The notes under the pieces are model-generated. The model made no database searches, was not told where the DNA came from, and saw nothing but the letters and a program-made list of their open reading frames with translations. Both the position numbers and the translations under genes were made by a program. A stretch of 64,000 nucleotides of DNA from a virus: positions 96,001 to 160,000 of IMG/VR virus record IMGVR_UViG_3300043773_002546; one strand, 5' to 3'. The first letter of the stretch is position 1. Every line of letters starts with the position of its first letter. This document shows positions 10,484 through 58,815 of the stretch, one piece after another.

Positions 10484-12430
10484 GTGCGCATGCTTGATCC
10501 CATTCCCGCCTACTACGCGCAGAAGTTTGCGGCCGCGCAAAACGCCGACGTCAGTCTGCGCTTTCAGCCCGACTACACCCCAGAGCAGCTCGAGCGCCTG
10601 GGCGTGTACGACGCGCTGTACCGCGGTAAGAGCCCCAGACTCGCCAGCCTGGGCGAATGGAAGCCCGAATGGATCTCTGAGCATGATCCCAAGGGCTGGG
10701 CGCAGTGGTACAAGCGCTACGCCGCTGGCCGCCGAATCGAGGGCGAAGACGACCGGCAGATGAAGCGCTGGCTGAGCTTTAAATCACGCCACGGCGGGCC
10801 GTTTAGCAAGAACCCCACGCCGAGACGGGGCTGGGCGCTGCGCAACTGGGGCATTGATCCCAGCAAGCTGGTGCCAGACCGGGCGCAAGAGATCAACGAG
10901 CTGCTAGACGAGCATCAACGCAAGGCTATGCAAAAATACGTGCAGGAGAAAGTCAGCGAGCTCCTGCCCGAGATTCAGCTCCAAGAGCATCAGCAGCGCG
11001 TGGCTGATCGCGTAGCCGACGAAGACCCGCGCCTGCTGGTCTATCACGGCCTGGGCTCTGGTAAGTCTCTTTCAGCGCTCGCTGCTGCCGAAATGGCACG
11101 CAGAAATTCCGGGAGCCAATATGGCATAGTCGTTCCTGCAAGTTTGCGGGGCAACTTCCAGAAAGAAGTTAAGAAGTTCACCCGAAACTCCAATCCGGAG
11201 ATCATGAGTTACACGGGCTTAGCGCTCGGCAAGCGCTTTCAGCAGCCGCCAGAGACCGTGGTCATGGACGAGGCGCAAAGATTACGTAATCCTGGCGCCG
11301 CAGCAACGCAGGGAGCTGAGGAAATCGCGCGCCAGGCCAAACGGCTCGTGCTGCTGTCGGGCACGCCCATTACCAACTCGCCGACAGACCTCGCCTCATT
11401 GATGTCATTGCTCGATAACAAACCGATGTCGCCGCAGGACTTTGAGAAGCGCTACATTGGCTACAAGAAAAAGTTTCCCGGGTTTGTTAACTGGCTGCGC
11501 GGCGCCGAATGGGGCGAAGAGCCGTATGTCAAAAACGAGAAAGAGCTCCGCGAGAGACTCAAGGGCAAAGTTGACTATCAGCCCAGCAAGACTCCCCAGG
11601 GCGTGACTGTCAACGAAGAGACGGTGAAAGTTCCGCTGAGTTCTGAGCAAAGTAAAATTCAAAAAGCCATTCGCACGCAGATTCCGCCCGGCTTTCTCTG
11701 GAAACTAGATAAAGAGTTTCCGCTGTCGCGCGATGAGCTCAAGAAACTGAATTCTTTTCTTACGGGCCTGCGCCAAGTTTCGCTGTCCACGCAGCCGTTT
11801 CGCGTGGACAAAGATCCGCTCAAAGCTTTTGATCAGTCCAGCAAGCTTCGCGAGGCTATGAAGCGCCTGCGCGAAAACCTGGACGCGGATCCCCGTAAAA
11901 AAGCCATCATCTACTCGAACTTTATAGATTCGGGAATTCAGCCCTACGCCAAAGCCCTCGAGCGCGACAAGATTCCCTATGGCATCTTTCACGGCGGCGT
12001 GCCCGTCAAGGCCCGCCAAGAGGCCCTCAAGCAGTACAACGAGGGCAAGCTCCGCGCGCTCTTGCTGGGGCCCGCCGCCGCCGAGGGCATCTCCACGAAG
12101 GGTACGAGTTTAATTCAGCTCTTGGATCCCTACTGGCACGAGTCCCGAACGCAGCAGGCCCGCGGGCGTGGTTTGCGGTTTGATAGTCACGCGGGGCTGC
12201 CTGAAGAGCTCAAGAACGTTGCCGTGCAGCGCTTTCTCTCGGCTAGCGAGGAACCGGGCGTATTTAGCAAGTACGTGCTGGGCAAGCGCCGTCAGCGGAC
12301 CGGAGACGAAGTGTTGCAGCACCTCTCCAACGACAAAGAAAAGCTTAACGAGGCGTTCCGTAAGATTTTGCGCGAAGTTGGCTCAGAAAAACACAAGCCA
12401 ACGCCTGACGAAGAAAACACACCTCATTGA
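10484..12430 (+). CDS. SNF2/SF2 helicase-like ATPase with extra N-terminal domain
   Basis: HGLGSGKS (motif I), VPASL (Ia), MDEAQ (II), SGTP (III), QARGRGLRFDSH (VI); N-domain DPKGWAQWYKRY..DDRQMKRW. Confidence 0.9.
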   Translation: MRMLDPIPAYYAQKFAAAQNADVSLRFQPDYTPEQLERLGVYDALYRGKSPRLASLGEWKPEWISEHDPKGWAQWYKRYAAGRRIEGEDDRQMKRWLSFKSRHGGPFSKNPTPRRGWALRNWGIDPSKLVPDRAQEINELLDEHQRKAMQKYVQEKVSELLPEIQLQEHQQRVADRVADEDPRLLVYHGLGSGKSLSALAAAEMARRNSGSQYGIVVPASLRGNFQKEVKKFTRNSNPEIMSYTGLALGKRFQQPPETVVMDEAQRLRNPGAAATQGAEEIARQAKRLVLLSGTPITNSPTDLASLMSLLDNKPMSPQDFEKRYIGYKKKFPGFVNWLRGAEWGEEPYVKNEKELRERLKGKVDYQPSKTPQGVTVNEETVKVPLSSEQSKIQKAIRTQIPPGFLWKLDKEFPLSRDELKKLNSFLTGLRQVSLSTQPFRVDKDPLKAFDQSSKLREAMKRLRENLDADPRKKAIIYSNFIDSGIQPYAKALERDKIPYGIFHGGVPVKARQEALKQYNEGKLRALLLGPAAAEGISTKGTSLIQLLDPYWHESRTQQARGRGLRFDSHAGLPEELKNVAVQRFLSASEEPGVFSKYVLGKRRQRTGDEVLQHLSNDKEKLNEAFRKILREVGSEKHKPTPDEENTPH

Positions 12431-22586: not shown

Positions 22587-22613
22587 CGCACAAAGATATC
22601 AATGGAGTTAAGC

Positions 22614-38105: not shown

Positions 38106-38107
38106 CC

Positions 38108-38413
38108 ATGAGCGACGAAATCGGCCCCGCCGAGGGCTGGCGCAGCGGCATCTGGCCGCGGCCAAAACCCAAGCCAACACCGGCGCCTGAGCCGGGTCCA
38201 GCGCCTGCGCCAGCACCGGACGGCGGCGACGGTAAAGCTCCCGCGGCGATTGCGCGCGCCTGGTGGATTTTGCGAAACACCGATCTGCGGTCGCTGCGGG
38301 CTGTATTTACATTTGTGCCGCTGACGGTGTTTTTTGCTGTCAGCGGTCTTGTGGTCTGGACGCTTTTGACTTTGCGCGCATTAATCTGGCTTGTAAAAGC
38401 AATTGTTAACTAA
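38108..38413 (+). CDS. Pro-rich membrane protein
   Basis: PAP linker plus long C-terminal hydrophobic region. Confidence 0.7.
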   Translation: MSDEIGPAEGWRSGIWPRPKPKPTPAPEPGPAPAPAPDGGDGKAPAAIARAWWILRNTDLRSLRAVFTFVPLTVFFAVSGLVVWTLLTLRALIWLVKAIVN

Positions 38414-38459
38414 TGATTGATATCAATGTGCGGCGTAACTTTACCGAGCGGGAAAGTTC

Positions 38460-39482
38460 GTGATGTTTGACCTCCTAAAATGGCAAAATGTTCCCGAGCG
38501 GGTAAGCACGCTGTTGGCGACAGCCGAGCAGGTGCGGTCTGCCCATTTCAAAGCTGCCAGCGCCGCGGGAATTCTGCCGCTGAGCCTGGTGACCTGGGAG
38601 CCGGAAAACGGCGGCATCTCGGTTTACACGCCGCACAAACTGGCAGAGAAGACAGCCGACGCCTATGTGGCGGCCTTCCACTACCCGACTGAATCAATCA
38701 TTCTTCGCGAGTTTGCCAATCAGCAGCCGGACTGGACGAAAGAAATCGGCGTCAAACGCGGGGCCGCTATTCCGGGCGTGAAGCATCTCTTTGAGGGCGG
38801 CAACGCGCTGCTACTTGGTCCGACACCTTTGTCCAACGGCATTGTTTCAGCGTTGATGCTTGGCGGCCTGGGCTACGGTGTTGGGACCGCGGCCGAGCAC
38901 TTGTTCCCCGCGCGTTACATGCAGCGCGGTAAACTCCGCCGCACCTTGGGCATTGCTGGCGCGCTGGGCGGAGCTGGCCTGGGCGCCGCAAACGCTTACG
39001 CCAACAGCCGCGCCATGGACTCGAGCTTTCTCGAGGGCCTGATCACTAATAACAAGACGCTTCCTCCGTATCTTAAAGAGTACGAGAAGCAGAGCGCCTT
39101 TGGCTCTTTTACACACCCCGACGGCACGGGACTGTGGGCGCCAAGCGTGCCGGTTCCGCAGTTTAATTCAATGGTCTGGAACGACGTTAACAAGGGGCGG
39201 TACAGCCCCTATGGCGGCCACACGTCGCCGTCAATCGGCGCGGCGACCACGGGTTTCATGAGCGGACTAGCGACGCAAAACCGCAGCCCAATCATTTCTC
39301 CTGCGACAGTTATTAACGGCATTGCTTCGGCTGGGGTGGGGCTGGCAACGGCCAACATCGCGGGCCGAGCGCTTTCAGCGCTGGCGGGTCTAACCCCCGA
39401 AGCCCAAAACAAACTCCAGGACATGGGGCTTTACGGCGGCATGCTCCACGCGATTGTGCCGTCGATGTTCGGCGGGCGGTAG
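38460..39482 (+). CDS. Gly-rich hydrophobic putative virion protein
   Basis: Gly-zipper helices; KAAS, KTAD, KQSAFG. Confidence 0.75.
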   Translation: MMFDLLKWQNVPERVSTLLATAEQVRSAHFKAASAAGILPLSLVTWEPENGGISVYTPHKLAEKTADAYVAAFHYPTESIILREFANQQPDWTKEIGVKRGAAIPGVKHLFEGGNALLLGPTPLSNGIVSALMLGGLGYGVGTAAEHLFPARYMQRGKLRRTLGIAGALGGAGLGAANAYANSRAMDSSFLEGLITNNKTLPPYLKEYEKQSAFGSFTHPDGTGLWAPSVPVPQFNSMVWNDVNKGRYSPYGGHTSPSIGAATTGFMSGLATQNRSPIISPATVINGIASAGVGLATANIAGRALSALAGLTPEAQNKLQDMGLYGGMLHAIVPSMFGGR

Positions 39483-44871: not shown

Positions 44872-45228
44872 GTGAGTCTGCGCAAATTTCACAGCGAAAT
44901 GGGCGGCGCCCAGCACGGCGGTGCCCGGCTGAGCTGGCCCGGCACGCCCGAGGGTTTTCCGGTCATTAACCGATCGGAGCACGCGGACCTCAAGCAGGAA
45001 GAGACCGAAAACCTCGACCTGCGGATGGATTACAAGTCCAAAATGTTCGAGCTGTGGGACGCGGCGCAGAAGGCAGAATTCGACGACATAAATGATAAGA
45101 TAGTCAACGGTTGGTACCTGTTGCAGAAGCGCAGCGACAACTGGGACGCAGAAAACAAACATTATCGCGTATGGCTGGAGTGGTGCCAGATTTACGGCAT
45201 GATTCCGCCTTCGAGGGCGCAACGATGA
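44872..45228 (+). CDS. hypothetical protein
   Basis: SD AAGGAGG, GTG 44872. Confidence 0.8.
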   Translation: MSLRKFHSEMGGAQHGGARLSWPGTPEGFPVINRSEHADLKQEETENLDLRMDYKSKMFELWDAAQKAEFDDINDKIVNGWYLLQKRSDNWDAENKHYRVWLEWCQIYGMIPPSRAQR

Positions 45229-46151
45229 GCACAAAACAAGCGGGCATCGGTGATTTTCTGTTTCCCGGAGTTTTCGGCCCGGATAACCATCCGGCCATGC
45301 AAGCCGCCGCCGAAGCACGAGAAAAGCTTAAGCAGCAGACAGAAAGCGCCCTGACAAGCCACTACGGCCAGAACATGCGTCAAATGCTCGGCTACGGCCT
45401 GGCGGGCGGCGCTGGCGCCACGGCGCTGTACCATGCCTTGCGCGCCCTGAGAAAGCCCAAGAAGAGCGAGACGAAGTACGACGAGATGAACTCTGGCGCT
45501 CCAGTGATGGCTAAGGAAGCCCTCAGCCTGGACGAAATGCTGGGAAAGCTCGTGCCTACGACCATGACCGGTCTGCCTAGTGGCGATGGTGCCGGTAACG
45601 GCGGCGCCCCGGCGGCGCCAGGACTTCCGGCGGACCCGCACATGTACCGTCCGACGTGGGCTGCACTGGCCGCGCTGGGCGCTGGCGGCTTAGGGCTCTA
45701 TGGCGGCAATAAGGCTGTCGGCGCGCTGGTCAACCGTAATAAGAAAAAAGATAGTCAGGCGGAAATCGACGAGGCCCGCAAAGCCTATTACGACGCCTTG
45801 CTGGGCGGCGATAAGAAAGCTGCTGCGCTAGACGACGTGTACGCTGCTTGGCAAGAGAAGCATGCCAACCCGCTGACGACTGTCCGCGACGCCTTTAACT
45901 CGACCGCCGATTTCTTTGGTAGGACAGTTCCTCAAAGCGCGCACGCCCTGGCGCTGCTTGGCGCTTTGGGCGGCGGGGCGTACAGCGCCAAAAAGATGTA
46001 CGACTGGACCAAGTCCCGCAGCGAGGGCGAGAATCTCCGCAAAGCCCAGGCATCTAAGGCGCGGATGAAGGGCTTGCCAACGACGTGGGTGGATCCTGAA
46101 GAGCTGACGCGGATTAAAGAACTCGCGGCGCAAGCTGACAATGAGCAGTAA
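45225..46151 (+). CDS. putative virion protein with three hydrophobic Gly-rich helices
   Basis: KQAG, KEAL, KKAAA, KHAN boundaries. Confidence 0.75.
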   Translation: MSTKQAGIGDFLFPGVFGPDNHPAMQAAAEAREKLKQQTESALTSHYGQNMRQMLGYGLAGGAGATALYHALRALRKPKKSETKYDEMNSGAPVMAKEALSLDEMLGKLVPTTMTGLPSGDGAGNGGAPAAPGLPADPHMYRPTWAALAALGAGGLGLYGGNKAVGALVNRNKKKDSQAEIDEARKAYYDALLGGDKKAAALDDVYAAWQEKHANPLTTVRDAFNSTADFFGRTVPQSAHALALLGALGGGAYSAKKMYDWTKSRSEGENLRKAQASKARMKGLPTTWVDPEELTRIKELAAQADNEQ

Positions 46152-46153
46152 CA

Positions 46154-49100
46154 ATGCCAGATCCGATCAATCTAGCGCCCGCTCAGCCTCCGCAGCGCGC
46201 ATTCGGCGACGTTAACGCACTGCGCAATAATATCTTTGAGCGGTCGTTACAACACGCCTCGACGCTCGAGCCTATCAAGAATGACCTGTACACGCTCCAG
46301 CTGAGCGACGTGCAGTACAAGGGCCCGGAGCGCTACACGAAGGCCGACCAGAAGAAAGCCGTGCTCACTCGCGGCTCGTTGGCCCGCAAGCTTGTGGGCA
46401 CCTGGAACCTCGTTGACAACAAGACCGGCCAGCAGGTTGCCCAGCGTCAGCAGACGATCGCTAGCGTGCCATACCTGACCGACAGCGGCACGTTTGTGAA
46501 CAAGGGCGTGGAGTACACCCTGGCGCACCAGATGCGGCTGCGGCCCGGCGTGTTCACCCGCGAGAAAGACAACGGCGAGCTAGAGGCGCATGTTAACGTG
46601 CTGCCCGGCAAGGGCCGCATGCACCGGTACTTCCTCGACCCGAAGACGGGCGTGATGAAGATCAACATTGGCCAAGCGCAGATTCCGCTTATGCCGCTCT
46701 TAAAAACGCTGGGCGTTAGCGAGGGCGATATTCGCAAGTCGTGGGGTAACGAGCTGACGGCCGTGAACATGCAGCAGGGCGACGCGGGCACGCTCGACAA
46801 GCTTTATCAGCGCCTGGTGTACAAGCAAGAGCCTGGCAGCGACGCCTTGGCCAAGCAGAAGGCCATCGCCGCTGAGTTCGCCAAGATTGAGCTGGACCCC
46901 GAGGTTACCAAGCGGACTCTCGGCCAGCCCTACACCCGCATGACGCCCGAGGTCATTCTGGCGACGACAAAAAAGCTCATTGCGCTAAACCGCAAGGAAA
47001 CCGACCCGGACGATCGCGATTCGCTGGCTTACCAGTCGGTCGTTGGCCCCGAGGACCTGCTCTCGGAGCGCTTTACCAAGGACAAGGCCACGCTGCGTCA
47101 GCTGCTCTGGAAAGCCACGGCCAAGAAAAGCCTCGACCATATTCCTACGGGCGTGTTCAACAAAGCGCTCAACGCCGCGCTGATCGGCTCCGGGTTGGGC
47201 AGCTCACTCGAGGAGATTAACCCCGCAGAGATCTTCGACCATCAGACCCGCGTGACGCGACTTGGCGAGGGCGGCATCGGCTCGCTCGACGCCGTGCCCC
47301 AGGAATCCCGCAGCGTGCAGCCAAGCCACTTGGGTTTTGTGGATTTTCTGCGGACTCCCGAGTCTGGCAAAGTCGGCGTCGACATGCGTTTTAGCCGCGG
47401 CGCCATGAAGGGCAGAGACGGCAAGATTTACACGCCAGTAGTGAACATGCAAACCGGCGCTACGGAGTACAAGACGCCCCAAGAACTGGCGGATACGCCG
47501 TTGGCTTTTCCTGGCGAAGAGAAGAGCAAGCTCCCGATGGTTGCGGCGCTGGTGGGCGGCAAGATGAAGTACGTCCCCCGTGAAGAAGCGCAGTTCTCGC
47601 TGCCGCACATGGACAACTCTTTTTCGGCGCTCTCGAATATGGTCCCCATGAAGAGCATGATGAAGGGACACCGAGTGATCATGGGCAGCCGCATGTTCAC
47701 GCAGGCACTGCCGCTGGTGGACGCCGAGGCGCCGCTGGTGCAGTCCGCCCGGGCCGACAACCCCGGTGAAAGCCACGAGGACGAGATGGGCGGCAAACTC
47801 GGCGCCGTCCGTGCCGACGTTCACGGCCAGGTGGTCTCTGTCTCGTCTGATGAGATCGTCGTTCGCGACCGTGACGGCAATAAGAAAAGCATCGAACTCT
47901 ACAACGACATGCCGTTTAACCGGAAGACTTTCTGGACGCAGAAGCCCACGGTTCAACCCGGCGATACGATCAAGCCCGGCCAGCTGCTCGCGCATTCCAA
48001 CTTCACTGATAAGCAAGGAACAGCGGCGCTGGGCAAGAATCTCCGTGTGGCGTATGTGCCCTTCCGCGGCAAGAACTACGAAGACGCCGTGGTCATCAGT
48101 GAGTCAGCAGCCAAGCGCCTCACGAGCGAGCACATGTACCAGCACGAGGCCGAATGGGACGACCAGACCCACGTCGGCAAGAAGGCGTTTCTGTCTTTGT
48201 TTCCGGGCGAGTACGACAAGAAGGCGCTCGCCAACTTCGACGACAAGGGCGCCATCCAGAAGGGCACGGTCGTGAACTATGGCGACCCGCTTGTGCTCCA
48301 GGCCAAGGCGAAAGAGACAACTTACGGCAAGGTTCATCGCGGCCGCGCCGGAAACTTCACCAACGAGACACTCACCTGGGAGCACCACACGCCGGGCGTC
48401 GTGACCGACGTCGAACACACCGACAAGGGCGTCAGCGTTGTAGTCAAAAGCCAGGCGCAGATGGAGGTCGGCGACAAGCTCACCGGTCGCTTCGGCGACA
48501 AGGGCGTTGTGGCCGACGTGATTCCGGACCACCAGATGCCCCAGGACAAAGACGGCAATCCGTACGAGGTCCTCGTCTCGCCGCTGGGCCTAATCTCCCG
48601 CGTGAACCCCTCGCAGGTCATCGAAGCCGCGCTGGGCAAAGTCGCTGCGAAGACCGGCCAGCCCTTCAAGCTCAAGGACTTCGATGACGAGAACGACCTG
48701 ATTGAGATGGCGCAGCGGGAGCTGGCTAAGCACGGGTTGAGCGATACCGAGGACCTCACCGACCCGGAGACCGGGCGAAAGATCAAAGGCGTGCTCACCG
48801 GCAGCCGCTTCTTTATGAAGCTCCATCACACGGCCGAGGGCAAAGGGCAGGGCCGCGCGATGGGCAGCTATACCGCCGAGGGCACTCCGGCCAAGGGCGG
48901 CAGTGAAGGCGCCAAGCGCGTCGGCATGCTCGACCTGGGCGCGCTTTTGTCCCACGGCGCCGGAAAGGTCATCCGCGACGCCAAAATGGTCCGCGGCCAG
49001 GCTAACCCCGAGTACTGGTCGCAGTTCATGGCCGGGTATACCCCGCCGCTGCCAAAAGTCCCGCACGTCTACGAGAAGTTTGTCGGGCAGCTCAAAGCTT

Positions 49101-50527
49101 CTGGCATTAACGCTGTCCGCAGCGGGACGCGCACGAACATCATGGCGTTAACCGACAAGGACGTCGAGCAACTGGCCGGAGACCGCGAGATCACCAGCTC
49201 CGACACGGTCGACTGGAAGGGCAAGCTCAAGCCGATTAAGGGCGGACTGTTTGACGAGACGCTCACCGGCGGCCACATGGGCAACCGCTGGAGCAAGATT
49301 ACGCTTCACGAACCGATGCCCAACCCGGTCATGGAAGAGCCCATCCGCCGCACCCTGGGCCTGACCGAGAAAAAGTTTCGCGCCGTGCTGTCCGGGACTG
49401 ACACGCTGCGCGACAAGACCGGCCCGCAGGCAATCGCCGAGGCCCTTGGTGCGATTAGCTTGCCCAAGGCAATCGAGCAGTGCCGCGAGGACATCAAGTC
49501 GGGCCGCAAGACCCTTCGCGACGCCGCAGTGCGCCGCTTGGGGTACTTAAAGTCCGCCGAGGCCGCGGGCGTGCATCCCAAAGACTGGATGCTCACTAAG
49601 ATGCCGGTTTTGCCGCCGATGTTTCGCCCCGTCTCGACGATGGGCGCCAAAAAGCTGCCCTTGGTAGCCGACGCAAATTACCTTTACAAAGAGCTCCTCG
49701 ACAGCAACAACGCGCTCAAAGACGCTTCCGGCGCGTTGGCCGAGTACAGCGACGAGCGGCTAGGACTTTACGATGCCATGAAAGGCGTGACCGGGCTGGG
49801 CAGTCCCACGCAGCCGAAGAATCAGGAACGGCAGGTAAAGGGCTTCCTGCAGCACGTTTTTGGCTCAAGCCCGAAGTACGGCACCGTACAGCGCAAGCTG
49901 CTTTCTACGACCGTGGACCTGGTCGGCCGCGCGGTAATTACTCCTAACCCGGACTTGGACATGGATGAGGTCGCTTTGCCCGAGGACAAAGCCTGGGAGG
50001 TGTACAAGCCCTTCGTTGTCCGCGGGCTAGTCAGGCGCGGAATGCCGCGCATGCAGGCCCTGGACGCCGTCGAGCAGCGCAACAAGGCCGCCGCTGCTGA
50101 ACTTCAGGGCCAGATGAGTTCTCGGCCAATCGTTATTAACCGTGCGCCCGTGCTGCATCGATACGGTATGATGGCGTTTTATCCAAAGCTCACCAAAAAC
50201 AAGGTTATGGAGGTCAATCCGGTCATTACCAAGGGCTTTAACGCCGACTTCGACGGAGACGCGATGCAGTATCACGTTCCCAGCACAGAGGACGCCGCCA
50301 AGGAAGCCGTGGAAAAAATGCTGCCCAGCAAAAACTTGTTCGCGGCCGCCAGCTTCAAAGCGCACTACGTGCCGCAGGCGGATTTCCAGACAGGCGTTTA
50401 CTTGGCATCTAGCCGGATTGACAAGAAAGCCAAGCCGCGTATTTTTCGTACCAAGCAGGAAGCCCTACACGCCTATCGCCGCGGCGAGATCGACGTCGAC
50501 ACCCCGGTAAATATTGTCGAGAGTTAA
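46154..50527 (+). CDS. rpoBC: DNA-directed RNA polymerase, beta subunit fused to N-terminal half of beta'
   Basis: beta motifs RTPESGKVG, MGSRMFTQALP, NYEDAVVISE, GDKLTGRFGDKG, FMKLHH; beta' motifs VLPPMFRP, VDLVGRAVI, NRAPVLHR, catalytic NADFDGD (50240-50260). Confidence 0.97.
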   Translation: MPDPINLAPAQPPQRAFGDVNALRNNIFERSLQHASTLEPIKNDLYTLQLSDVQYKGPERYTKADQKKAVLTRGSLARKLVGTWNLVDNKTGQQVAQRQQTIASVPYLTDSGTFVNKGVEYTLAHQMRLRPGVFTREKDNGELEAHVNVLPGKGRMHRYFLDPKTGVMKINIGQAQIPLMPLLKTLGVSEGDIRKSWGNELTAVNMQQGDAGTLDKLYQRLVYKQEPGSDALAKQKAIAAEFAKIELDPEVTKRTLGQPYTRMTPEVILATTKKLIALNRKETDPDDRDSLAYQSVVGPEDLLSERFTKDKATLRQLLWKATAKKSLDHIPTGVFNKALNAALIGSGLGSSLEEINPAEIFDHQTRVTRLGEGGIGSLDAVPQESRSVQPSHLGFVDFLRTPESGKVGVDMRFSRGAMKGRDGKIYTPVVNMQTGATEYKTPQELADTPLAFPGEEKSKLPMVAALVGGKMKYVPREEAQFSLPHMDNSFSALSNMVPMKSMMKGHRVIMGSRMFTQALPLVDAEAPLVQSARADNPGESHEDEMGGKLGAVRADVHGQVVSVSSDEIVVRDRDGNKKSIELYNDMPFNRKTFWTQKPTVQPGDTIKPGQLLAHSNFTDKQGTAALGKNLRVAYVPFRGKNYEDAVVISESAAKRLTSEHMYQHEAEWDDQTHVGKKAFLSLFPGEYDKKALANFDDKGAIQKGTVVNYGDPLVLQAKAKETTYGKVHRGRAGNFTNETLTWEHHTPGVVTDVEHTDKGVSVVVKSQAQMEVGDKLTGRFGDKGVVADVIPDHQMPQDKDGNPYEVLVSPLGLISRVNPSQVIEAALGKVAAKTGQPFKLKDFDDENDLIEMAQRELAKHGLSDTEDLTDPETGRKIKGVLTGSRFFMKLHHTAEGKGQGRAMGSYTAEGTPAKGGSEGAKRVGMLDLGALLSHGAGKVIRDAKMVRGQANPEYWSQFMAGYTPPLPKVPHVYEKFVGQLKASGINAVRSGTRTNIMALTDKDVEQLAGDREITSSDTVDWKGKLKPIKGGLFDETLTGGHMGNRWSKITLHEPMPNPVMEEPIRRTLGLTEKKFRAVLSGTDTLRDKTGPQAIAEALGAISLPKAIEQCREDIKSGRKTLRDAAVRRLGYLKSAEAAGVHPKDWMLTKMPVLPPMFRPVSTMGAKKLPLVADANYLYKELLDSNNALKDASGALAEYSDERLGLYDAMKGVTGLGSPTQPKNQERQVKGFLQHVFGSSPKYGTVQRKLLSTTVDLVGRAVITPNPDLDMDEVALPEDKAWEVYKPFVVRGLVRRGMPRMQALDAVEQRNKAAAAELQGQMSSRPIVINRAPVLHRYGMMAFYPKLTKNKVMEVNPVITKGFNADFDGDAMQYHVPSTEDAAKEAVEKMLPSKNLFAAASFKAHYVPQADFQTGVYLASSRIDKKAKPRIFRTKQEALHAYRRGEIDVDTPVNIVES

Positions 50528-50541
50528 ACACGGAGGTTTAC

Positions 50542-51273
50542 ATGTTCACGGTTAATCCCGAACTGATTTCGCTCGCCCGCATGCGGTTCGAAAAGTCGGC
50601 CGTTGTGCCCCCGGGCGGCGGCGACCCGGCCATGATGGGCGGCGGCGCACCTCCGATGGACCCGGCGGCTATGGGCATGCAACAGCCTGCCGCCCCGGTT
50701 GACCCGGCTCAGGCGGCTATGGGCGCCGCTCCTCCTGCTGACCCCTCTCAGGATCCAACCGGCGCGATGGCCGCCGCAGCCCCGCCAGCACCGGCCCCGA
50801 TGCCTCCGGCGACGCCCACCGCCGCCGCTCCTGGCCAGCAGAAGCTCAAACCCGAGCAGATGATGCAGATGCTCGACTACCGGCTTTACAACATGCAGCA
50901 GCAACTCACGGCGATCATGAACGCCATGGGCGTGCAGGTCCCGCCGGAATCGCTCGTGCTACCCCCGGGCACGACCGGCGCGCCCCCGGCTGAGACGGCG
51001 CTGCCCGGCGGCCCGATGGCGCCGCCCCCGCCGCAGCAGGACCCGAACGCCCCGAGCGGCCCGCAACCTCCGGGCGGCCCGCTCCCTCCCGGCGGCCCGA
51101 TGGATCCCAGCCAGATGCCCATGGACCCTAACGCGCCGAAGCAGGCCAACTGGTGGGATGTGGGGCGCCCCGTGGACAAGGCCGTGCACAGCAACCCCGA
51201 CGCCCCGACGGACCTGCAGACCAAAGCGGCTGCAATCGCCGCGCTGTGTCGGAGCATGACGCGTGCGCGTTAA
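50542..51273 (+). CDS. Pro/Met/Gly-rich low-complexity protein between the RNAP genes
   Basis: Hairpin SD; EKSA and KQAN sites; short central helix. Confidence 0.8.
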   Translation: MFTVNPELISLARMRFEKSAVVPPGGGDPAMMGGGAPPMDPAAMGMQQPAAPVDPAQAAMGAAPPADPSQDPTGAMAAAAPPAPAPMPPATPTAAAPGQQKLKPEQMMQMLDYRLYNMQQQLTAIMNAMGVQVPPESLVLPPGTTGAPPAETALPGGPMAPPPPQQDPNAPSGPQPPGGPLPPGGPMDPSQMPMDPNAPKQANWWDVGRPVDKAVHSNPDAPTDLQTKAAAIAALCRSMTRAR

Positions 51274-51511
51274 ATTAACTCACAACCTGCAGCCTCACGA
51301 ACAGTCGGCTCAGTCGATCATTCTGTATGACGATCTGGGAAATCCGATTTTCGTGGCCATGCAGCTTGATGAGTCGATTATCTACGCCGACGCCGGAGAG
51401 CCTGATTTTCACGCTATGCTTCGCGCCTTGGGCGTGAACAAAACAGTCATCGTCAACGAGATCACGCCAAAGCCCGTCAAGAACATGCTGTGGACGCCGG
51501 GAAATGCTTAA
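51263..51511 (+). CDS. small hypothetical protein coupled to the beta'-C gene
   Basis: Overlaps both neighbours. Confidence 0.75.
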   Translation: MRVKLTHNLQPHEQSAQSIILYDDLGNPIFVAMQLDESIIYADAGEPDFHAMLRALGVNKTVIVNEITPKPVKNMLWTPGNA

Positions 51512-53408
51512 AACCACGCTTGGTCAAGTACTTTTAAACGAAACGCTTCCGGAAGATCTCCGGGACTACAATCGCGTTTTGACTAAAAAAGACATGGCCA
51601 AGCTGGCTACGGACCTAGCCGAGAAGCACCCGGACAAGTACCGCCAGGTCATGAAGCGGCTGCACGACATCGGCCATGAAGCGGCTTACACCACCAATGG
51701 CCTTTCCTTCGGTCTCAAAGATATCAAACCGACGTTAGCAGCCCGCACCGCCCAGTTGCGCGTACACAAAGCGCTGCAGGGAATTCTCGCCGATAAAGGC
51801 ATCGACGAAAAAGCCCGCACTTTGAAGATCCTTAAGCTGGCCTCCGAGGCGCAAAAGTCTCTCGTCGAGGACGTCTACAAAGAGGCCGAGAGCGCCGACA
51901 ACCCGCTGGCGCATCAGGTTCGCGGCGTTTCGCGCGGCAACAAGTACAGTTTGAATTCTCTGATCGGCGCCGACATGCAGTACGTCGACCATAAGAACGA
52001 CCCGATTCCGATTCCTGTAATGCGTGGCTACGGCCAAGGCCTGCGCCCTGTGGAGTACTTCGCCGGGGCCTTCGGCACCCGCAAGGGCGTCATGGACCTG
52101 AAGACAGCAACTGCCGATGCCGGTTTCTTCGGCAAGCAGCTGGCGCAGATGACGCACAGACTTTTAGTGACCGACGACGACGACAAGGACGAAGAGCGCA
52201 ACGCCACCGCCCACGACCGCGGCTTTCCAAGCGACGTGGACGACCCAGATAACGAGGGCGCGTTCTTGGCGCGGCCCGTCGGCCCATACAAGCGCAACAC
52301 TCTTTTGACGCCGAAGATTCTCCGCGAGCTCAAGGAACAGGGCGTCAAAGACATCCTGGTACGCAGCCCAACCGTGGGCGGCCCAGAGGACGGCGGCGTG
52401 TACGCTAGGGACGTTGGCTACAGGGAAAAGGGCAAGCTCCCGCCCGTAGGCGACTACGTGGGCATCGCCGCGGCTCAGGCACTTTCGGAACCGGTGACGC
52501 AGGCGCAGATTAGCTCCAAACATTCCGGCGGCGTGGGCGGCGCAGGTTCAATCTCTGGCTTCAAGGCTATTAACGCTTTGGCGCAGGTCCCCAAAAAATA
52601 CCCCGGCGGCGCTGCGCACGCCCAGATTGACGGCACGGTTCAAGAGGTGCGCCCCGCGCCCCAGGGCGGCTTTTACGTGCAGATCGACGGGCAGGAGCAC
52701 TATGTCCCCACAGACCGCGAGGTCTCGGTCAAAAAGGGCCAGACCCTCGAGGCAGGAGACACGATTTCCAGCGGCATGCCCAACCCCGGCGAAATCGTCC
52801 GCCACAAGGGCATCGGCGAAGGGCGCAGGTATTTCGTTCAGGCCATGCGTCAAGTGCTGCAAAACTCTGGCGTGTCGCCACATCGCCGTAACATCGAACT
52901 TCTCTCGCGCGGATTGGTAAATCATGTTCGCATGACCGACGAGCACGGCGACTATGCGCCGGACGACATCGTGCCCTACTCGATGATCGAACGGAGTTGG
53001 ACGCCGCGGTCGGGCAGCGTGACCGGCGCGCCGAAAAGCCTTTCTGGGCATTATCTAGAGCGCCCCGTACTGCACTACTCAGTTGGTACAAAAATCGGTA
53101 AGGGCGTGCTTGCGAACCTGGAAAAATACGGCATCAACAATGTCGAGGCCCACAAAGAGCCGCCGCCGTTTCAGCCGGAAATGGTTCGCGGCATGGCAAA
53201 TATCTCTAACGACCCCGACTGGATGACCCGCATGCTCGGCTCGTACCAGCAGAAGGGCCTGTTAAACAGCGTACACCGCGGCCTATCCAGCGATACATCC
53301 GGATCGAGTTTCGTTCCCGCGCTGGCCCGCGGCGAAACATTCGGTGTTTCCGGCGCCACGAGCGGATGGCAGCCGCAGAACGATTTAGGTAGGATGAAAG
53401 GGCCCTAA
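51504..53408 (+). CDS. rpoC: RNA polymerase beta' C-terminal half
   Basis: KTTLGQ; bridge helix EYFAGAFGTRKGVMDLKTATADAGFFGKQL; trigger loop AAQALSEPVTQAQISSKHSGG; RRNIELL. Confidence 0.93.
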   Translation: MLKTTLGQVLLNETLPEDLRDYNRVLTKKDMAKLATDLAEKHPDKYRQVMKRLHDIGHEAAYTTNGLSFGLKDIKPTLAARTAQLRVHKALQGILADKGIDEKARTLKILKLASEAQKSLVEDVYKEAESADNPLAHQVRGVSRGNKYSLNSLIGADMQYVDHKNDPIPIPVMRGYGQGLRPVEYFAGAFGTRKGVMDLKTATADAGFFGKQLAQMTHRLLVTDDDDKDEERNATAHDRGFPSDVDDPDNEGAFLARPVGPYKRNTLLTPKILRELKEQGVKDILVRSPTVGGPEDGGVYARDVGYREKGKLPPVGDYVGIAAAQALSEPVTQAQISSKHSGGVGGAGSISGFKAINALAQVPKKYPGGAAHAQIDGTVQEVRPAPQGGFYVQIDGQEHYVPTDREVSVKKGQTLEAGDTISSGMPNPGEIVRHKGIGEGRRYFVQAMRQVLQNSGVSPHRRNIELLSRGLVNHVRMTDEHGDYAPDDIVPYSMIERSWTPRSGSVTGAPKSLSGHYLERPVLHYSVGTKIGKGVLANLEKYGINNVEAHKEPPPFQPEMVRGMANISNDPDWMTRMLGSYQQKGLLNSVHRGLSSDTSGSSFVPALARGETFGVSGATSGWQPQNDLGRMKGP

Positions 53409-53462
53409 GACGCTAAATTAGTGTCCAGATCTGGTTAATTTGCTCGCCGCACGGAGGTGGCT

Positions 53463-55844
53463 GTGTACAACCGCAAGAATTCTCAGCCTGAGTGGAAGCA
53501 CTGGCTCAAGGTTGCTCGTTCCCACGACCGCAGCCGTACCAAGCAAGCCGATATTGGCGGCAGCGGTGACAGCGCCTCGTTTGAGCAGGCGTTTTCAAAC
53601 CTGGCGCACGCTTACCTCCGCGACAGCGCCCCCAAGCTGCTGGACCATGAAATCGGTTTCCAGCTTTTGGACCGCAATAACGAGAACACTAAGGCAGTGG
53701 GCGTTTTTGCGTTTAAGGTCGGTTCCCAGTGGCTGTATGCCCCGGTGTTCTTCCTTAACGGTGAGCTCAAGGGCCACGAACTCCTGTACATCAAGAACCA
53801 GGACATGTTCGTGCCGTTGAAGGAAAACTGGGTTAACTACCTGATTAACCGCAAACCCAACATCCTGGGCAGCGGCGTTGATCGAAATCTGGGCGCGCGC
53901 GGTCAGCGACAGCCTGACTTTACGCAGCTTTCGCGCAGCCCGGCCAAGTTTGGTTCGGCGCAGCCGACTCTCAAGGAAATGATGACGGCCGCGATGGGCG
54001 CGTTTGCCAAGACGGCCACAATGAACACCGCCGCCGCGTTTGCTGACATGGGCAAGTCGCTTGACCTGGGTAAGTTCCTTAAGGAAGCCCGGCTTGAGAC
54101 AATTAACATGCTGGTGAACACGTTCAAGCACGCTCCGGCCCTGGCCAAGGCGTTTGACGAGTTCCACGGACTGGACACGGTTAAGGAAGCTATCGCGCTG
54201 GCTAAGGCCCGCGCGGCGCAGCCGAAGATCGCTAGCGTGCTGGAAAGCGCGCCAAACAAGTCCGAGGCGACCAAGAGCCTGAAGGTGATCACGCTGGACG
54301 TGACCCTGCAGACCAAGCTGCCGCCCGAGACCACCGAAGAAGATCAGGAAAAGCTGCTGCGCGACGGCGTGCTGATCCTCGACCAGCGCGACCGCGACAA
54401 CGTGTCTATTCCCTACAACATCCAGGTCGAGAAGAAGCTTTTCAACCCGACCTGCTCCGGCCTGTACGACATTATTGTCAAGCCCAACAGCGTGGAGCGC
54501 GTCTACATCGCCGTGTTTCCGGTGGGCCCGGCCAAGCGCAGCGATTTCGTCACGGTGGTGCGCACCGAAGGCAAGCCGACGTGGGTCAACACCCGCGCCG
54601 ACCGCGTCTTCTGCCTGGCGCACGTCGACGGAAAGGATTACGACGCGTGGTTTAACGGCCTGCCCGACGCCGACAGCGCCAGCAAGTCTGGCCGCTACAT
54701 GGCGGTCGGCAAGAACGGCGACGCCACGGTTCCCTTCCGCGTCATCCGCGAATTGGGCAGTACGGAGTTCAGCGGCACGAGCTATGAAGTCCACATGGAG
54801 GACCATTCGAAGTTTCCTCCCAAGGGCCACATCTCGCCCTGCTGCTACAGCGACCCGCTGAATTACGACAAATACCGCGACGGCGAGCGAATTCATCTCA
54901 AGGGTAAGAAGGGCAGCCAGCTCCGTGCGAGCATGGGCGACATCTTCGTTCCCGAGAGTTTCAAGCTGCTTAAATGCGCCCCGGGCGAAGACGACGTACC
55001 GGCCAGCGAGCTGGGCAACGGCCCGGCCTGCGGCTGTGGCGAGAGCGAAGACCCGCCGCTGCTCCCCGGCACTCTGGCCGACGCGCAGCTTGAGATCATG
55101 GGCAAGACGGCAGCGTTGGAGGTATACCACAACGGCACCGAGGTGGTAATCAACAAGGCAGCGGCTATGACGCCAATCAAGGCGCTGGTCACGCTTGTCG
55201 AGCATCACGGCCTGCGTGAAGACGCCGCCCGCGAGATCCTCAAAACAGCGGCTGCCAAGCGGAAGTACAGCGGTCGGATTAAGTACGCCAATCCGTACGG
55301 CTCGCCGATGATGATTAATGACGCGCCCGGCGCCCCGACTGATCCGGGCCCGGTAATGGGCGGCGAGACGATTATGGGCTCCAGCGTCCCGACGCAGCTG
55401 GGCATCGACATGGCTATGCCGGTTTCCGGCATGAGCGCGTCTCAAACGGACCGGCAGATCTACAACCCCAACACGCAGCTGGACAACAAGGCTATCCAGC
55501 AGGTGATGGAGGCCTCGCAAACGGGCCAGAAGGAAGTCTTCGACACGGCGATGATTGGCAGCATGCTGCGCGCTGTTCGCGACGACTCGATGGTCGACCG
55601 TTATATGGGCGAGCTCACCAAGGGCCTCGACAAGCTCGGCCGAATTTTGTTTATGTTCTACTGGCACGGCGATCGCTTCGCCGACCGTTACGGCAAAGCC
55701 GACATGCCGGAGCTAGAGGATTCGCTGCGCAACGCCTTCGAGATGTTGGGCGACGTCATCCTCTTCCTTAAGCAGAAGACCATCGAGCCGTATCCGGAAG
55801 AAGCCGGTGCCGACATTGATCTCAGCAACGTCGCAAACGCATAG
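53463..55844 (+). CDS. large putative head/virion protein
   Basis: GTG 53463 after hairpin SD (track start 53457); KQAD, KTAT, KTAA, KYAN sites. Confidence 0.8.
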   Translation: MYNRKNSQPEWKHWLKVARSHDRSRTKQADIGGSGDSASFEQAFSNLAHAYLRDSAPKLLDHEIGFQLLDRNNENTKAVGVFAFKVGSQWLYAPVFFLNGELKGHELLYIKNQDMFVPLKENWVNYLINRKPNILGSGVDRNLGARGQRQPDFTQLSRSPAKFGSAQPTLKEMMTAAMGAFAKTATMNTAAAFADMGKSLDLGKFLKEARLETINMLVNTFKHAPALAKAFDEFHGLDTVKEAIALAKARAAQPKIASVLESAPNKSEATKSLKVITLDVTLQTKLPPETTEEDQEKLLRDGVLILDQRDRDNVSIPYNIQVEKKLFNPTCSGLYDIIVKPNSVERVYIAVFPVGPAKRSDFVTVVRTEGKPTWVNTRADRVFCLAHVDGKDYDAWFNGLPDADSASKSGRYMAVGKNGDATVPFRVIRELGSTEFSGTSYEVHMEDHSKFPPKGHISPCCYSDPLNYDKYRDGERIHLKGKKGSQLRASMGDIFVPESFKLLKCAPGEDDVPASELGNGPACGCGESEDPPLLPGTLADAQLEIMGKTAALEVYHNGTEVVINKAAAMTPIKALVTLVEHHGLREDAAREILKTAAAKRKYSGRIKYANPYGSPMMINDAPGAPTDPGPVMGGETIMGSSVPTQLGIDMAMPVSGMSASQTDRQIYNPNTQLDNKAIQQVMEASQTGQKEVFDTAMIGSMLRAVRDDSMVDRYMGELTKGLDKLGRILFMFYWHGDRFADRYGKADMPELEDSLRNAFEMLGDVILFLKQKTIEPYPEEAGADIDLSNVANA

Positions 55845-57224: not shown

Positions 57225-57893
57225 ATGCCCGTCACAGTAAACAGCGACATATTTTTGAGCGCAGCCAACATAACGGCGCTCAAAGTCGGCTACGGCAACG
57301 TCTCCAAAGCGTTTCTGGGCGAGACGTTGGTATTTGAAACAGACTTCGGTAGTTCTGGTTTTCAGTGGATGACAATGACTTCTATTACGGAAGCCACGGC
57401 GGCCGGAATCGGGCAAAACAATATCACAGTCGCGATTACCCAGAGCGGCGGCGGCATGTTTTTGCATAACGGCGCGGTTGCAGCCACACTGTTCCCGCCA
57501 GAATACGGCGTGCCGACCAGCGGTAATCAAATCGCAAATACACAGGCTGGAGTATTTACTGCTGTATTTAGCAGTCCTGTTACAGATGCCTTGGTTGCCT
57601 TTGCGAGTGTTGGTCAGGCTGGTGGCGCCGTTCCAGTGCTAGTGCTTGACGAAAATGGCAATCCGAAACCGTTCACGGTAATTTGGGATTCAACATCCAC
57701 TGTGCCTAACACGCAAACAACATATCAAAATCCGGTCGGCGCTGGACCGGAATTCCAGTACACGCAGTTCACTGGCGAAGAAGGCTTTAACATCATTCGC
57801 ATCGACGGCACAATGAGTAGCGTGACGTTTAACTACGGCGCTGACGAATATTACTGCACAGTTTGTTTCGGGTTTGTGGATCAAAATGCTTAA
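57225..57893 (+). CDS. putative structural/fibre-associated protein (lower GC)
   Basis: ITALKVGYGNVSKAFLGETLVF N-terminus typical of small fibre proteins. Confidence 0.75.
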   Translation: MPVTVNSDIFLSAANITALKVGYGNVSKAFLGETLVFETDFGSSGFQWMTMTSITEATAAGIGQNNITVAITQSGGGMFLHNGAVAATLFPPEYGVPTSGNQIANTQAGVFTAVFSSPVTDALVAFASVGQAGGAVPVLVLDENGNPKPFTVIWDSTSTVPNTQTTYQNPVGAGPEFQYTQFTGEEGFNIIRIDGTMSSVTFNYGADEYYCTVCFGFVDQNA

Positions 57894-58815
57894 CGCTATT
57901 CGGGACAACCCCCGCCGGGCTCCGCACTGGCGGTGGCTCCGTGCCGTGCAAATTGACAGCGGCGGGCCAAGGCCGAGCCGCGCAATCGACGGTGAAGCGG
58001 GTTTTGAGTGGATCCGACGGTCCTCGCGGCTCAAGCGGCGCTACGATCAGGCCGCCAATAATCCCGACGCTTTGTACCGGCTCATCCAATACGACCGGGA
58101 GCTGTTCTGGGCCCATAACATGTGGCTAGACGACAAGGCGCCTATGCGCTACGCCGTTGAAGCCCGCATCCTAGCAGGCGAGAGCGACGAACAAATAGCC
58201 GGGCGTATCGGCACCGACGCGGGGGTCATCCGGGCCTACGCCGAAGTATTTTTTGAAGTTCGCGCACTGATGGACAACTGGGACTACATCGTCAACGTGA
58301 TTATGGCCGACGCGGTCAGCCGCGGCGTAGCCGAGCGGCAGTACGATCTGCTGTGGAAGATGTTCGCTTTCTATGGCGGCAGCCACGTTCTGGACGCCGT
58401 GATTAGCCGTTTCACGATTCTTCCCAAGCCGGAACGCGCCGACGGCGTGGCTGGATTTTTTCAAGATTTCGCCGTTAATACGATGAAACACAAGGCGGCC
58501 GTCGCGGCGTTGACGGTGCCGGTGAACACCCACACCCAGCTGCCGATCATCGAATCGTTCGTCAAATACACAGAAATCGAAAAAACTAGCGAAAATGCCG
58601 TACAGGCACACGCTACAATTATTGACAATATCGGCGCGATGATGTCGGCGTTGCCCTTCAAAATCGGGACAAAACTGGATTCAGCAGCCGATAAAATGTT
58701 ACCCTTTGATAACGGCGCGGCAGAATTGCGCAACGATGAGATGATGATTGTGGCCGCAGGCGGTAAGCTTGCGCAGCACACCGTTATCGAAGACCTGCGG
58801 TTCCCGGAGAAGTAG
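57886..58815 (+). CDS. hypothetical protein
   Basis: ATG 57886 in frame with 57874..58815. Confidence 0.8.
   Translation: MLNAIRDNPRRAPHWRWLRAVQIDSGGPRPSRAIDGEAGFEWIRRSSRLKRRYDQAANNPDALYRLIQYDRELFWAHNMWLDDKAPMRYAVEARILAGESDEQIAGRIGTDAGVIRAYAEVFFEVRALMDNWDYIVNVIMADAVSRGVAERQYDLLWKMFAFYGGSHVLDAVISRFTILPKPERADGVAGFFQDFAVNTMKHKAAVAALTVPVNTHTQLPIIESFVKYTEIEKTSENAVQAHATIIDNIGAMMSALPFKIGTKLDSAADKMLPFDNGAAELRNDEMMIVAAGGKLAQHTVIEDLRFPEK

What the first reader, a model, noticed from the sequence alone, without database searches (positions are those of the whole stretch)
46154..53408. RNA polymerase re-partitioned as a beta+beta'-N fusion and a separate beta'-C gene
Seen: the beta C-terminus (PHVYEKFVGQLKASGINAVR, ~49120) runs straight into the beta' N-terminus (TNIMALT..KPIKGGLFDE) and on to NADFDGD. 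The chain ends after EALHAYRRGEIDVDTPV, and the rest begins at 51504 (KTTLGQ). Known: rpoBC fusions exist (Helicobacter, Wolbachia) and cyanobacteria split beta' just after the TTxGR motif. Here the split falls just before TTxG and is combined with the fusion, putting both catalytic double-psi barrels on one chain and the bridge helix/trigger loop on another. Beta is also much shorter than cellular RpoB. No alpha or sigma is visible in the window. Location within head genes suggests a virion RNAP (inference).
Basis: partly seen in the sequence, partly recalled or inferred. Interest (0 to 1): 0.8.

Follow-up and report, generated by a model that had tools for sequence, protein, structure and literature searches.

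The report
Two-chain fused-and-split phage RNA polymerase
An uncultured 197-kb lake phage encodes its only RNA polymerase as two oddly cut chains (all of beta joined to the front 40% of beta-prime, the rest of beta-prime separate); hundreds of related phages, including cultured Salmonella and Vibrio phages, share this layout, yet I found no paper that describes it, and the enzyme probably travels in the virus particle with the phage's own sigma factor.

Summary
ORF 46154-50527 (1457 aa) is a complete beta joined, with no linker, to beta-prime residues ~15-568 (E. coli numbering). ORF 51504-53408 (634 aa) is the rest of beta-prime. Both catalytic barrels lie on chain 1; the bridge helix and trigger loop lie on chain 2.

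The two genes are not adjacent. Two conserved small ORFs lie between them.

It is not an artefact. An independent lake metagenome bridges the junction with no differences. All 56 IMG/VR loci and all 150 best 50%-identity cluster representatives keep the same fusion and the same chain end. Salmonella phage Arash and Vibrio phage D69 (31-33% identity) are joined and cut at the same alignment columns.

The genome has one RNAP set, one sigma-70-family gene and no detectable alpha or omega. The enzyme has lost the first beta-prime zinc site and every Cys of the second, and has one Cys in 2091 residues. The sigma and an SNF2 helicase have none.

Arash's homologues are among the most abundant proteins in virion mass spectrometry. 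The best reading is a virion-delivered, sigma-dependent, two-chain core.

The layout is standard for a large clade, but the papers I searched do not describe it. This scan has already found the same layout in related genomes.

The parts
46154..50527 (+). Fusion gene, 1457 aa: complete beta (residues 1-987) joined to the N-terminal ~40% of beta-prime (residues 988-1457)
   Evidence: Intact in 56 loci and in 150 cluster representatives. An independent contig bridges the junction.
48470..48508 (+). Beta active-site motif GDKLTGRFGDKGV (beta DPBB; E. coli GDKMAGRHGNKGV)
48305..48352 (+). Segment aligned to the beta flap tip (E. coli ~897-912), the docking site of sigma region 4 in bacteria
   Evidence: Alignment; the function is inferred
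49088..49153 (+). Fusion junction: ..QLKASGINA (end of beta) followed directly by VRSGTRTNIMALT (beta-prime ~residue 15); no linker
49241..49291 (+). Place where the beta-prime zinc-binding domain (E. coli 68-99) is missing; a short Cys-free loop stands there
49667..49789 (+). Beta-prime clamp helices (coiled coil), the main sigma region 2 docking site in bacteria
   Evidence: Alignment; the function is inferred
50240..50260 (+). NADFDGD, the Mg-binding catalytic loop (beta-prime DPBB)
50542..51273 (+). Conserved 243-aa Pro/Ala/Met/Gly-rich ORF between the two RNAP genes; function unknown
   Evidence: Kept at 34-74% identity in nearly all related loci that extend past the fusion gene. No Pfam or PHROG hit.
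51263..51511 (+). Conserved 82-aa ORF whose end overlaps the beta'C start by 8 nt; function unknown
   Evidence: No family or Atlas hit.
51504..53408 (+). Beta'C gene, 634 aa: beta-prime from the TTxG motif to the end
52047..52157 (+). Bridge helix
52467..52532 (+). First arm of the trigger loop (AAAQALSEPVTQ..KHSGG); no SI3 insertion
10484..12430 (+). Possible accessory: SNF2-type helicase, Cys-free, homologous to Arash gp217, which follows beta'C in Arash and was found in its virion
   Evidence: Association with the RNAP is inferred only.

Best explanation
The two genes encode the catalytic core of the phage's own bacterial-type RNA polymerase, cut into two chains in a non-canonical way. Chain 1 carries all of beta plus the beta-prime clamp, clamp helices and Mg-binding barrel. 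Chain 2 carries the beta-prime bridge helix, trigger loop, jaw and C-terminal conserved region. Shown: homology, intact catalytic motifs, the exact junction and cut, their conservation across a very large phage clade, a single RNAP set in the genome, and a sigma-70-family gene in the same genome. Inferred: (1) the two chains assemble into one core, with the covalent beta-beta'N link replacing part of the assembly role of the alpha dimer, for which no gene is found; (2) the core uses the phage sigma (regions 2-4), since the clamp helices and flap are kept; (3) core, sigma and probably the SNF2 helicase are packed in the virion and delivered with the DNA to start transcription without host RNAP. 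As the only RNAP encoded, the same enzyme would also be made anew for later genes. The loss of the first zinc site, of every Cys of the second, and of almost all other Cys fits a protein that must survive outside the cell and pass through the tail.
For: Homology and motifs. Same junction and same cut in Arash and D69 at 31-33% identity. All 150 best 50%-cluster representatives (46-62% identity) span the junction, and the alignment runs to the chain end in all except intein-interrupted or truncated entries. More than 120 closer clusters are ~1457-1480 aa and come from ~200-kb contigs. The cassette is conserved in the IMG/VR loci that extend past the fusion gene. An independent contig bridges the junction and no indels were seen. 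Only one Rpb2_6 and one Rpb1_2 locus in the genome. Sigma at G000:182099-182914 has Sigma70_r3 at 37.8 bits (cut-off 25.3), matches SigA chains across regions 2.4-4, is homologous to Arash gp10, and its homologues sit on contigs of the same lengths as those carrying the RNAP. In Arash virion MS, gp206 gave 3516 spectra (the highest count), gp216 1210, sigma gp10 467 and helicase gp217 1148: (PMC10585845). One Cys in 2091 RNAP residues, none in the sigma or SNF2 helicase, against 1.22% in long ORFs of the genome; 8 relatives have zero Cys in the fusion chain.
Against: There are no virion or expression data for this phage. The Arash particle list holds 116 proteins, among them ribonucleotide reductases and a dNMP kinase, so carry-over from lysate is possible. 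Alpha and omega were sought only at Pfam sensitivity, so a divergent analogue or use of host alpha is not excluded. That the sigma binds this core and not host RNAP is untested. In this genome the genes are far from the portal gene. I found no clear promoter motif.
Confidence: 0.7

Rival explanations
1. A real two-chain RNAP, but not packaged. Host RNAP transcribes the phage's early genes, and this enzyme is made after infection to transcribe middle and late genes.
For: The Arash 'structural proteome' includes obvious metabolic enzymes, so abundant intracellular proteins may contaminate it. In this genome the RNAP genes are 56 kb from the portal gene. Many phage sigmas redirect host RNAP (PMC7824862).
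Against: gp206 has the highest spectral count of all Arash particle proteins, and sigma and helicase are found with it. In Arash and D69 the fusion gene directly follows the portal gene. The RNAP, sigma and helicase share the near-absence of Cys.
Confidence: 0.2
2. A hybrid enzyme: the two phage chains need the host alpha dimer (and perhaps omega) to assemble, so the fusion does not replace the assembly platform.
For: No phage alpha or omega was found. All cellular RNAPs use an alpha-like platform (PMC7598289).
Against: The phiKZ and AR9 phage RNAPs work without alpha or omega. A virion enzyme would have to pack host alpha as well. Neither point was tested here.
Confidence: 0.25
3. The two ORFs are joined after transcription or translation (intron splicing or split-intein trans-splicing) into one full beta-beta-prime chain, as in Helicobacter.
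For: The gene family is full of inteins, and D181 has a group I intron in the fusion gene.
Against: No Rfam intron in 45000-54500. Both chain ends align to beta-prime with no spare residues for intein halves. Two conserved protein-coding ORFs fill the gap. In Arash the genes are 4.8 kb apart with opposite-strand genes between them, and MS gave separate protein entries.
Confidence: 0.02
4. An assembly or sequencing artefact, or a decaying pseudogene copy of a bacterial rpoBC operon.
For: None found.
Against: Independent contigs match. Hundreds of conserved homologues keep intact motifs, and the RNAP genes are the best-conserved genes of the locus (72-84% identity against 28-74% for neighbours).
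Confidence: 0.01

Closest known systems
Salmonella phage Arash gp206 (1525 aa) + gp216 (606 aa), and Vibrio phages D69/D148/D181 (OQ632216, OZ195729; PMC10585845)
   Same: Homologous at 31-33% identity over 97-98% of the fusion. Same beta/beta'N junction, same cut column, same loss of the beta-prime zinc-binding domain. A sigma gp10 homologue and an SNF2 helicase homologue are also shared.
   Different: Arash and D69 keep the four Cys of the second beta-prime zinc site; here they are gone. Their portal gene directly precedes the fusion gene; here it does not. Different genes lie between the two RNAP genes. The paper calls the proteins beta and beta-prime and does not mention the fusion.
Helicobacter and Wolbachia RpoBC fusion
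   Same: The beta C-terminus is joined head-to-tail to the beta-prime N-terminus in one chain.
   Different: There the whole of beta-prime is in the fusion (~2900 aa) and the enzyme has alpha and omega. Here the chain stops after the catalytic barrel.
Cyanobacterial and plastid split beta-prime (gamma/RpoC1 + RpoC2)
   Same: Beta-prime is cut after the Mg-binding barrel and before the bridge helix.
   Different: The cut is ~65 residues further downstream in cyanobacteria: gamma has 626 aa and the alignment ends at ~556. Beta is a separate chain there. RpoC2 carries a large SI3, which is absent here.
phiKZ/AR9-type jumbo-phage multisubunit RNAPs (PMC7598289, PMC7824862)
   Same: Phage-encoded beta/beta-prime homologues; beta-prime cut after the DPBB; no alpha or omega; one form is packed in the virion.
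   Different: Those phages also split beta into 2-3 chains, have two enzyme sets and no sequence-recognisable sigma-70. Here beta is whole and fused, there is one set, and a sigma-70-family gene is present.
Phage RNAPs with separate full-length beta and beta-prime (mReC contigs, PMC7481178; Rhizobium phage RHph_Y65, Vibrio phage Va2)
   Same: Bacterial-type phage RNAPs that align readily with cellular enzymes.
   Different: Beta-prime is one unsplit gene there (1127 and 1192 aa). The rows of the mReC table that I read list distinct beta and beta-prime genes.

Membership tests
Bacterial-type multisubunit RNAP core (beta/beta-prime) | Beta DPBB with the two conserved Lys (GDK..GRxGxKG) | tested here: met
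   GDKLTGRFGDKGV at residues 773-785; Rpb2_6 E 1e-52
Bacterial-type multisubunit RNAP core (beta/beta-prime) | Beta-prime NADFDGD Mg-binding loop | tested here: met
   Residues 1363-1369
Bacterial-type multisubunit RNAP core (beta/beta-prime) | Bridge helix and trigger loop | tested here: met
   Beta'C residues 182-218 and 322-343 align to E. coli 769-805 and 921-942
Bacterial-type multisubunit RNAP core (beta/beta-prime) | Alpha dimer and omega encoded | tested here: not met
   PF01000, PF01193 and PF01192 have no match at E<=0.1 in the 197-kb genome, while the controls match. This is Pfam sensitivity only; host subunits are not excluded.
Bacterial-type multisubunit RNAP core (beta/beta-prime) | Two beta-prime zinc sites | tested here: not met
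   E. coli 68-99 is deleted; no Cys at the 814/888/895/898 equivalents; one Cys in 2091 residues
Sigma-70-dependent holoenzyme | Sigma-70-family factor present, with clamp helices and flap retained | tested here: inconclusive
   The sigma gene is present and the docking segments align. Binding was not shown.
Helicobacter-type RpoBC fusion | Beta joined to the whole of beta-prime in one chain | tested here: not met
   The chain stops at E. coli beta-prime ~568
Cyanobacterial/plastid split beta-prime | Cut at the gamma/beta-prime boundary, with beta separate | tested here: not met
   The cut lies ~65 residues upstream of the cyanobacterial one, and beta is fused
phiKZ/AR9-type phage RNAP | Split beta, two enzyme sets, no sigma-70 homologue | tested here: not met
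   Beta is whole; one set; sigma is present
Arash-type phage RNAP (gp206/gp216 layout) | Beta+beta'N fusion and a separate beta'C, cut before TTxG | tested here: met
   Same alignment columns for the junction and the cut; 98% coverage at 33% identity
Virion-packaged RNAP | Protein present in purified particles | not testable with these tools
   Only by homology to Arash MS and by the Cys-free signature

The most novel reading that the evidence does not exclude
This is a fourth architectural class of phage multisubunit RNAP: a minimal, zinc-free, nearly Cys-free two-chain core. The covalent beta-beta'N link stands in for the alpha-dimer assembly platform. The core works with a phage sigma-70-type factor and is packed as a holoenzyme, perhaps with an SNF2 ATPase, in the virion. 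The class is widespread in ~200-kb phages of lakes, seawater and enteric bacteria, and it has gone unrecognised because annotation calls the chains 'beta' and 'beta-prime'.
Probability: 0.45. Interest if true: 0.75.

Novelty: new variant of a known kind. Interest (0 to 1): 0.6.

Why it matters
All cellular RNAPs build beta and beta-prime on an alpha-like platform. Natural re-partitions show which covalent links and subunits can be dispensed with: Helicobacter fuses the two, cyanobacteria split beta-prime, phiKZ shatters both.

Here one enzyme combines a fusion and a split and apparently has no alpha or omega. It keeps recognisable sigma docking elements and a sigma-70-type factor.

If it is active as two chains plus sigma, it would be the simplest sigma-dependent multisubunit RNAP known. 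That would make it a compact model for assembly, for promoter recognition, and for how a ~230-kDa enzyme is packed in a capsid and delivered.

Cultured relatives exist (Arash on Salmonella Typhimurium, D69 on Vibrio), so the question can be tested directly. The clade is large: at least 150 clusters at 50% identity. Its RNAP genes are also a hot spot for inteins and introns.

Tried and rejected
1. Complex prediction of the sigma with the beta'N part (residues 1010-1457) gave 'no answer': score 0.58, but one control scored 0.44. It counts neither for nor against binding.

2. The look-up of sequencing runs listed no RNA holder, so there is no expression evidence either way.

3. PHROGs on 20 neighbouring proteins gave almost nothing. 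The protein Atlas gave no usable hit for the 795-aa downstream protein or the 82-aa ORF.

4. I considered the 346-aa ORF just upstream (45111-46151) as a hidden alpha. It is fast-evolving, Gly/Ala-rich with hydrophobic stretches, and has no family. I dropped the idea.

5. I considered the 82-aa ORF that overlaps the beta'C start as an omega-like subunit. It has no homologue next to beta'C in Arash or D69, and in L043 it stays with the Pro/Ala-rich ORF rather than with beta'C. I make no such claim.

6. Window ORF 30362-30946 gave a weak Sigma70_r4 hit but is an HNH endonuclease with an HTH, not a sigma.

7. Intron or split-intein joining of the two genes is rejected.

8. A crude 8-mer enrichment in intergenic DNA gave no clear promoter motif.

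9. The mReC contigs of PMC7481178 have separate beta and beta-prime genes in the table rows I read.

10. Eight literature searches found no description of this layout, in phages or as an rpoB-rpoC1 fusion in plastids. This covers only the open-access library held here.

11. No phylogeny against bacterial RNAPs was built.
Full report
WHAT IS THERE

The window is bases 96001-160000 of a 197,309-bp IMG/VR virus record that CheckV rates 96% complete. Almost all its genes are on the + strand.

ORF 46154-50527 encodes 1457 aa and ORF 51504-53408 encodes 634 aa. Pfam places a beta domain (Rpb2_6, residues 554-907, E 1e-52) and a beta-prime domain (Rpb1_2, residues 1323-1387, E 4e-25) in the first protein. 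It places Rpb1_5 in the second.

Against solved structures, residues ~21-1008 of the first protein align to whole bacterial beta chains and residues 1062-1454 to beta-prime. The second protein aligns to M. smegmatis beta-prime 664-1184.

EXACT ANATOMY

I aligned the two phage chains, and those of Salmonella phage Arash and Vibrio phage D69, with E. coli RpoB+RpoC.

- Junction. The beta part ends ..QLKASGINA (residue 987), matching the last residues of E. coli beta. The next residue already matches beta-prime ~15, so there is no linker.
- Chain 1 contents. It holds the beta active-site motif (GDKLTGRFGDKGV, residues 773-785), a segment aligned to the flap tip, the beta-prime clamp helices (1172-1212) and NADFDGD (1363-1369).
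- The cut. Chain 1 stops at E. coli beta-prime ~568. Chain 2 begins at ~569 (KTTLGQ = DTTVGR).
- Chain 2 contents. It holds the bridge helix (182-218), the trigger loop (322-343) and, by eye, the C-terminal conserved region.
- Missing parts. Beta SI1 and SI2, beta-prime SI3 and the beta-prime zinc-binding domain (E. coli 68-99) are absent. All four Cys of the second zinc site are also gone.
- Identity to E. coli is 25-27%.

The cyanobacterial gamma subunit (626 aa) aligns only to its residue ~556 at the end of the phage chain. The cyanobacterial cut therefore lies ~65 residues further on. The phage cut is close to the cyanobacterial and phiKZ cut but is not the same one.

IS IT REAL?

Yes, on four lines of evidence.

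- Independent assemblies. Lake and freshwater metagenomes from other samples and studies hold the stretch. One contig of 1600 nt covers 48656-50255 without a single difference. Other contigs cover the stop of chain 1 and the start of chain 2. No indel was seen in four runs.
- Close homologues. The word-indexed protein search found more than 120 clusters at 75-95% identity. All are ~1457-1480 aa with both Pfam domains, many from ~200-kb contigs.
- Related loci. None of the 56 IMG/VR loci (54-84% identity) has a stop or frameshift at the beta/beta-prime junction; six carry only an in-frame insertion elsewhere in the gene. Nearly every locus that extends past the fusion gene keeps the order fusion, Pro/Ala-rich ORF, ~80-aa ORF, beta'C.
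- Distant homologues. An exhaustive HMMER search with residues 801-1457 returned 150 best representatives of 50%-identity clusters (46-62% identity). Every one spans the junction. The alignment runs to the chain end in all but entries that are interrupted by inserts or truncated.

Arash gp206/gp216 and D69 0261/0264 (31-33% identity) are joined and cut at the same alignment columns. The layout is therefore ancestral to a large and diverse phage clade.

THE GAP BETWEEN THE TWO GENES

The two genes are 976 nt apart. The gap holds a 243-aa Pro/Ala/Met/Gly-rich ORF and an 82-aa ORF whose end overlaps the beta'C start by 8 nt. Both are conserved in the close clade, and neither matches any family.

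Rfam finds no intron in 45000-54500. The chain ends leave no room for split-intein halves. The two chains are therefore separate gene products.

THE REST OF THE ENZYME

- The genome has one Rpb2_6 locus and one Rpb1_2 locus. This is the only recognisable RNAP.
- Pfam models for alpha (PF01000, PF01193) and omega (PF01192) find nothing, while the controls match.
- A 271-aa sigma-70-family protein lies at G000:182099-182914, 36 kb past the RNAP. Its Sigma70_r3 score is 37.8 bits against a cut-off of 25.3, and r4 is just below cut-off. phmmer matches SigA chains from region 2.4 to region 4. It is homologous to Arash gp10.
- Homologues of this sigma (61-88% identity) occur on contigs of the same lengths as those carrying the RNAP.
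- Other genes shared with Arash are the terminase, the portal (56 kb upstream of the RNAP), the capsid protein (~12 kb downstream), a gp222-like structural protein (61153-62625) and an SNF2-type helicase (10484-12430). In Arash the helicase directly follows beta'C.

VIRION OR NOT?

The Arash paper (PMC10585845) reports these spectral counts in particle MS:

| Arash protein | Spectra |
|---|---|
| gp206 (fusion chain) | 3516, the highest of all proteins |
| gp216 (beta'C) | 1210 |
| sigma gp10 | 467 |
| helicase gp217 | 1148 |

That list holds 116 proteins, including ribonucleotide reductases, so carry-over cannot be excluded.

A lead from earlier notes of this scan gave independent support from this genome, and I tested it here. 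The two RNAP chains have one Cys in 2091 residues. The sigma and the SNF2 helicase have none. Eight relatives have none in the fusion chain. Long ORFs of the genome average 1.22% Cys.

Arash and D69 keep the four Cys of the second zinc site, so that site's loss is specific to the lake clade.

A Cys-free, zinc-free enzyme fits a protein stored in a particle and passed through the tail. This is inference.

MECHANISM, WITH ODDS

I hold as shown that this is a functional-looking two-chain RNAP core. The further steps are inferred:

| Inferred step | Odds |
|---|---|
| Uses the phage sigma | ~0.6 |
| Is delivered in the virion | ~0.6 |
| Assembles without alpha, the covalent link standing in for it | ~0.5 |

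Rivals are a non-virion enzyme (0.2), a hybrid with host alpha (0.25), joining by splicing (0.02) and an artefact (0.01).

COMPARISON WITH WHAT IS KNOWN

- Helicobacter-type fusions hold the whole of beta-prime.
- Cyanobacteria and plastids cut beta-prime ~65 residues later and keep beta separate.
- phiKZ and AR9 enzymes also split beta, come in two sets and lack a recognisable sigma (PMC7598289, PMC7824862, PMC13282480).
- mReC contigs, Rhizobium phage RHph_Y65 and Vibrio phage Va2 have separate, unsplit beta and beta-prime.

None of these papers, nor the Arash paper, describes a beta+beta'N fusion with a separate beta'C. Eight full-text searches found none. I therefore class it as a new variant of a known kind: standard in its clade, present in public cultured phages, but not recognised in the literature I could search.

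This scan has already reported the same layout in related genomes. Those notes agree with mine, and I did not count them as evidence.

SIDE OBSERVATIONS

The gene family is crowded with mobile elements: inteins, including some inside the catalytic loop with odd junction residues, and a group I intron in D181.

Noticed in passing
Relatives: L035-L037, L039, L051, L062 (insert at residue ~403 of the fusion, equivalent to window ~47360); P0127, P0164: The RNAP fusion gene is a hot spot for inteins. Of the 150 cluster representatives, 116 are longer than 1600 aa. Pfam finds Intein_splicing, LAGLIDADG_3, Hint_2 and Hom_end in P0127 and P0164. Six IMG/VR loci carry a ~345-aa in-frame insert in the beta motif RTPE|SGKVG. 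It starts with Cys, ends ..CGN followed by Ser, and has a LAGLIDADG-like motif.
   Followed up: partly
Distant representatives P0158, P0161, P0168, P0169, P0186 (equivalent to window 50240-50260): Inserts of 280-490 aa sit inside the catalytic NADFDGD loop, with junctions ADFDGN|C...NGL..(W/F/Y)D|T. The residue before the insert (N) and the last insert residue (D) look swapped relative to a canonical intein (D|C...HN|T). Standard splicing would leave DFDGN without the third Asp. Unexplained.
   Followed up: partly
L074:4931-5211 (Vibrio phage D181; also D148): The fusion gene is interrupted after ~515 codons by a group I intron (Rfam RF00028, 100.7 bits) that carries a homing endonuclease gene. 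The record annotates the exons as separate hypothetical proteins.
   Followed up: yes
window 10484-12430 (+): A Cys-free SNF2-type helicase (Helicase_C, SNF2-rel_dom) homologous to Arash gp217. In Arash that gene directly follows beta'C and the protein is abundant in virion MS. It is a candidate RapA-like partner of the RNAP.
   Followed up: partly
window 50542-51273 and 51263-51511 (+): Two ORFs always lie between the two RNAP genes in the lake clade: a Pro/Ala/Met/Gly-rich, probably disordered 243-aa protein and an ~80-aa protein. Neither has a family. Whether they have anything to do with the enzyme is unknown.
   Followed up: partly
window 21930-24083, 36987-39482, 45111-46151, 57874-58815, 60203-61153 (+): Many long ORFs of the window have no Cys at all, like the RNAP, the sigma and the helicase, while other long ORFs of the genome reach 3-6% Cys. 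This may mark the set of virion or ejected proteins.
   Followed up: partly
window 30362-30946 (+): An HNH endonuclease with an N-terminal helix-turn-helix (Pfam HNH E 3e-08), probably a free-standing homing endonuclease.
   Followed up: partly
L001 and L002 (Arash gp216, D69 0264) compared with window 51504-53408: Arash and D69 keep the four Cys of the second beta-prime zinc site (C232, C284, C291, C294). The lake-phage clade has lost all four.
   Followed up: yes
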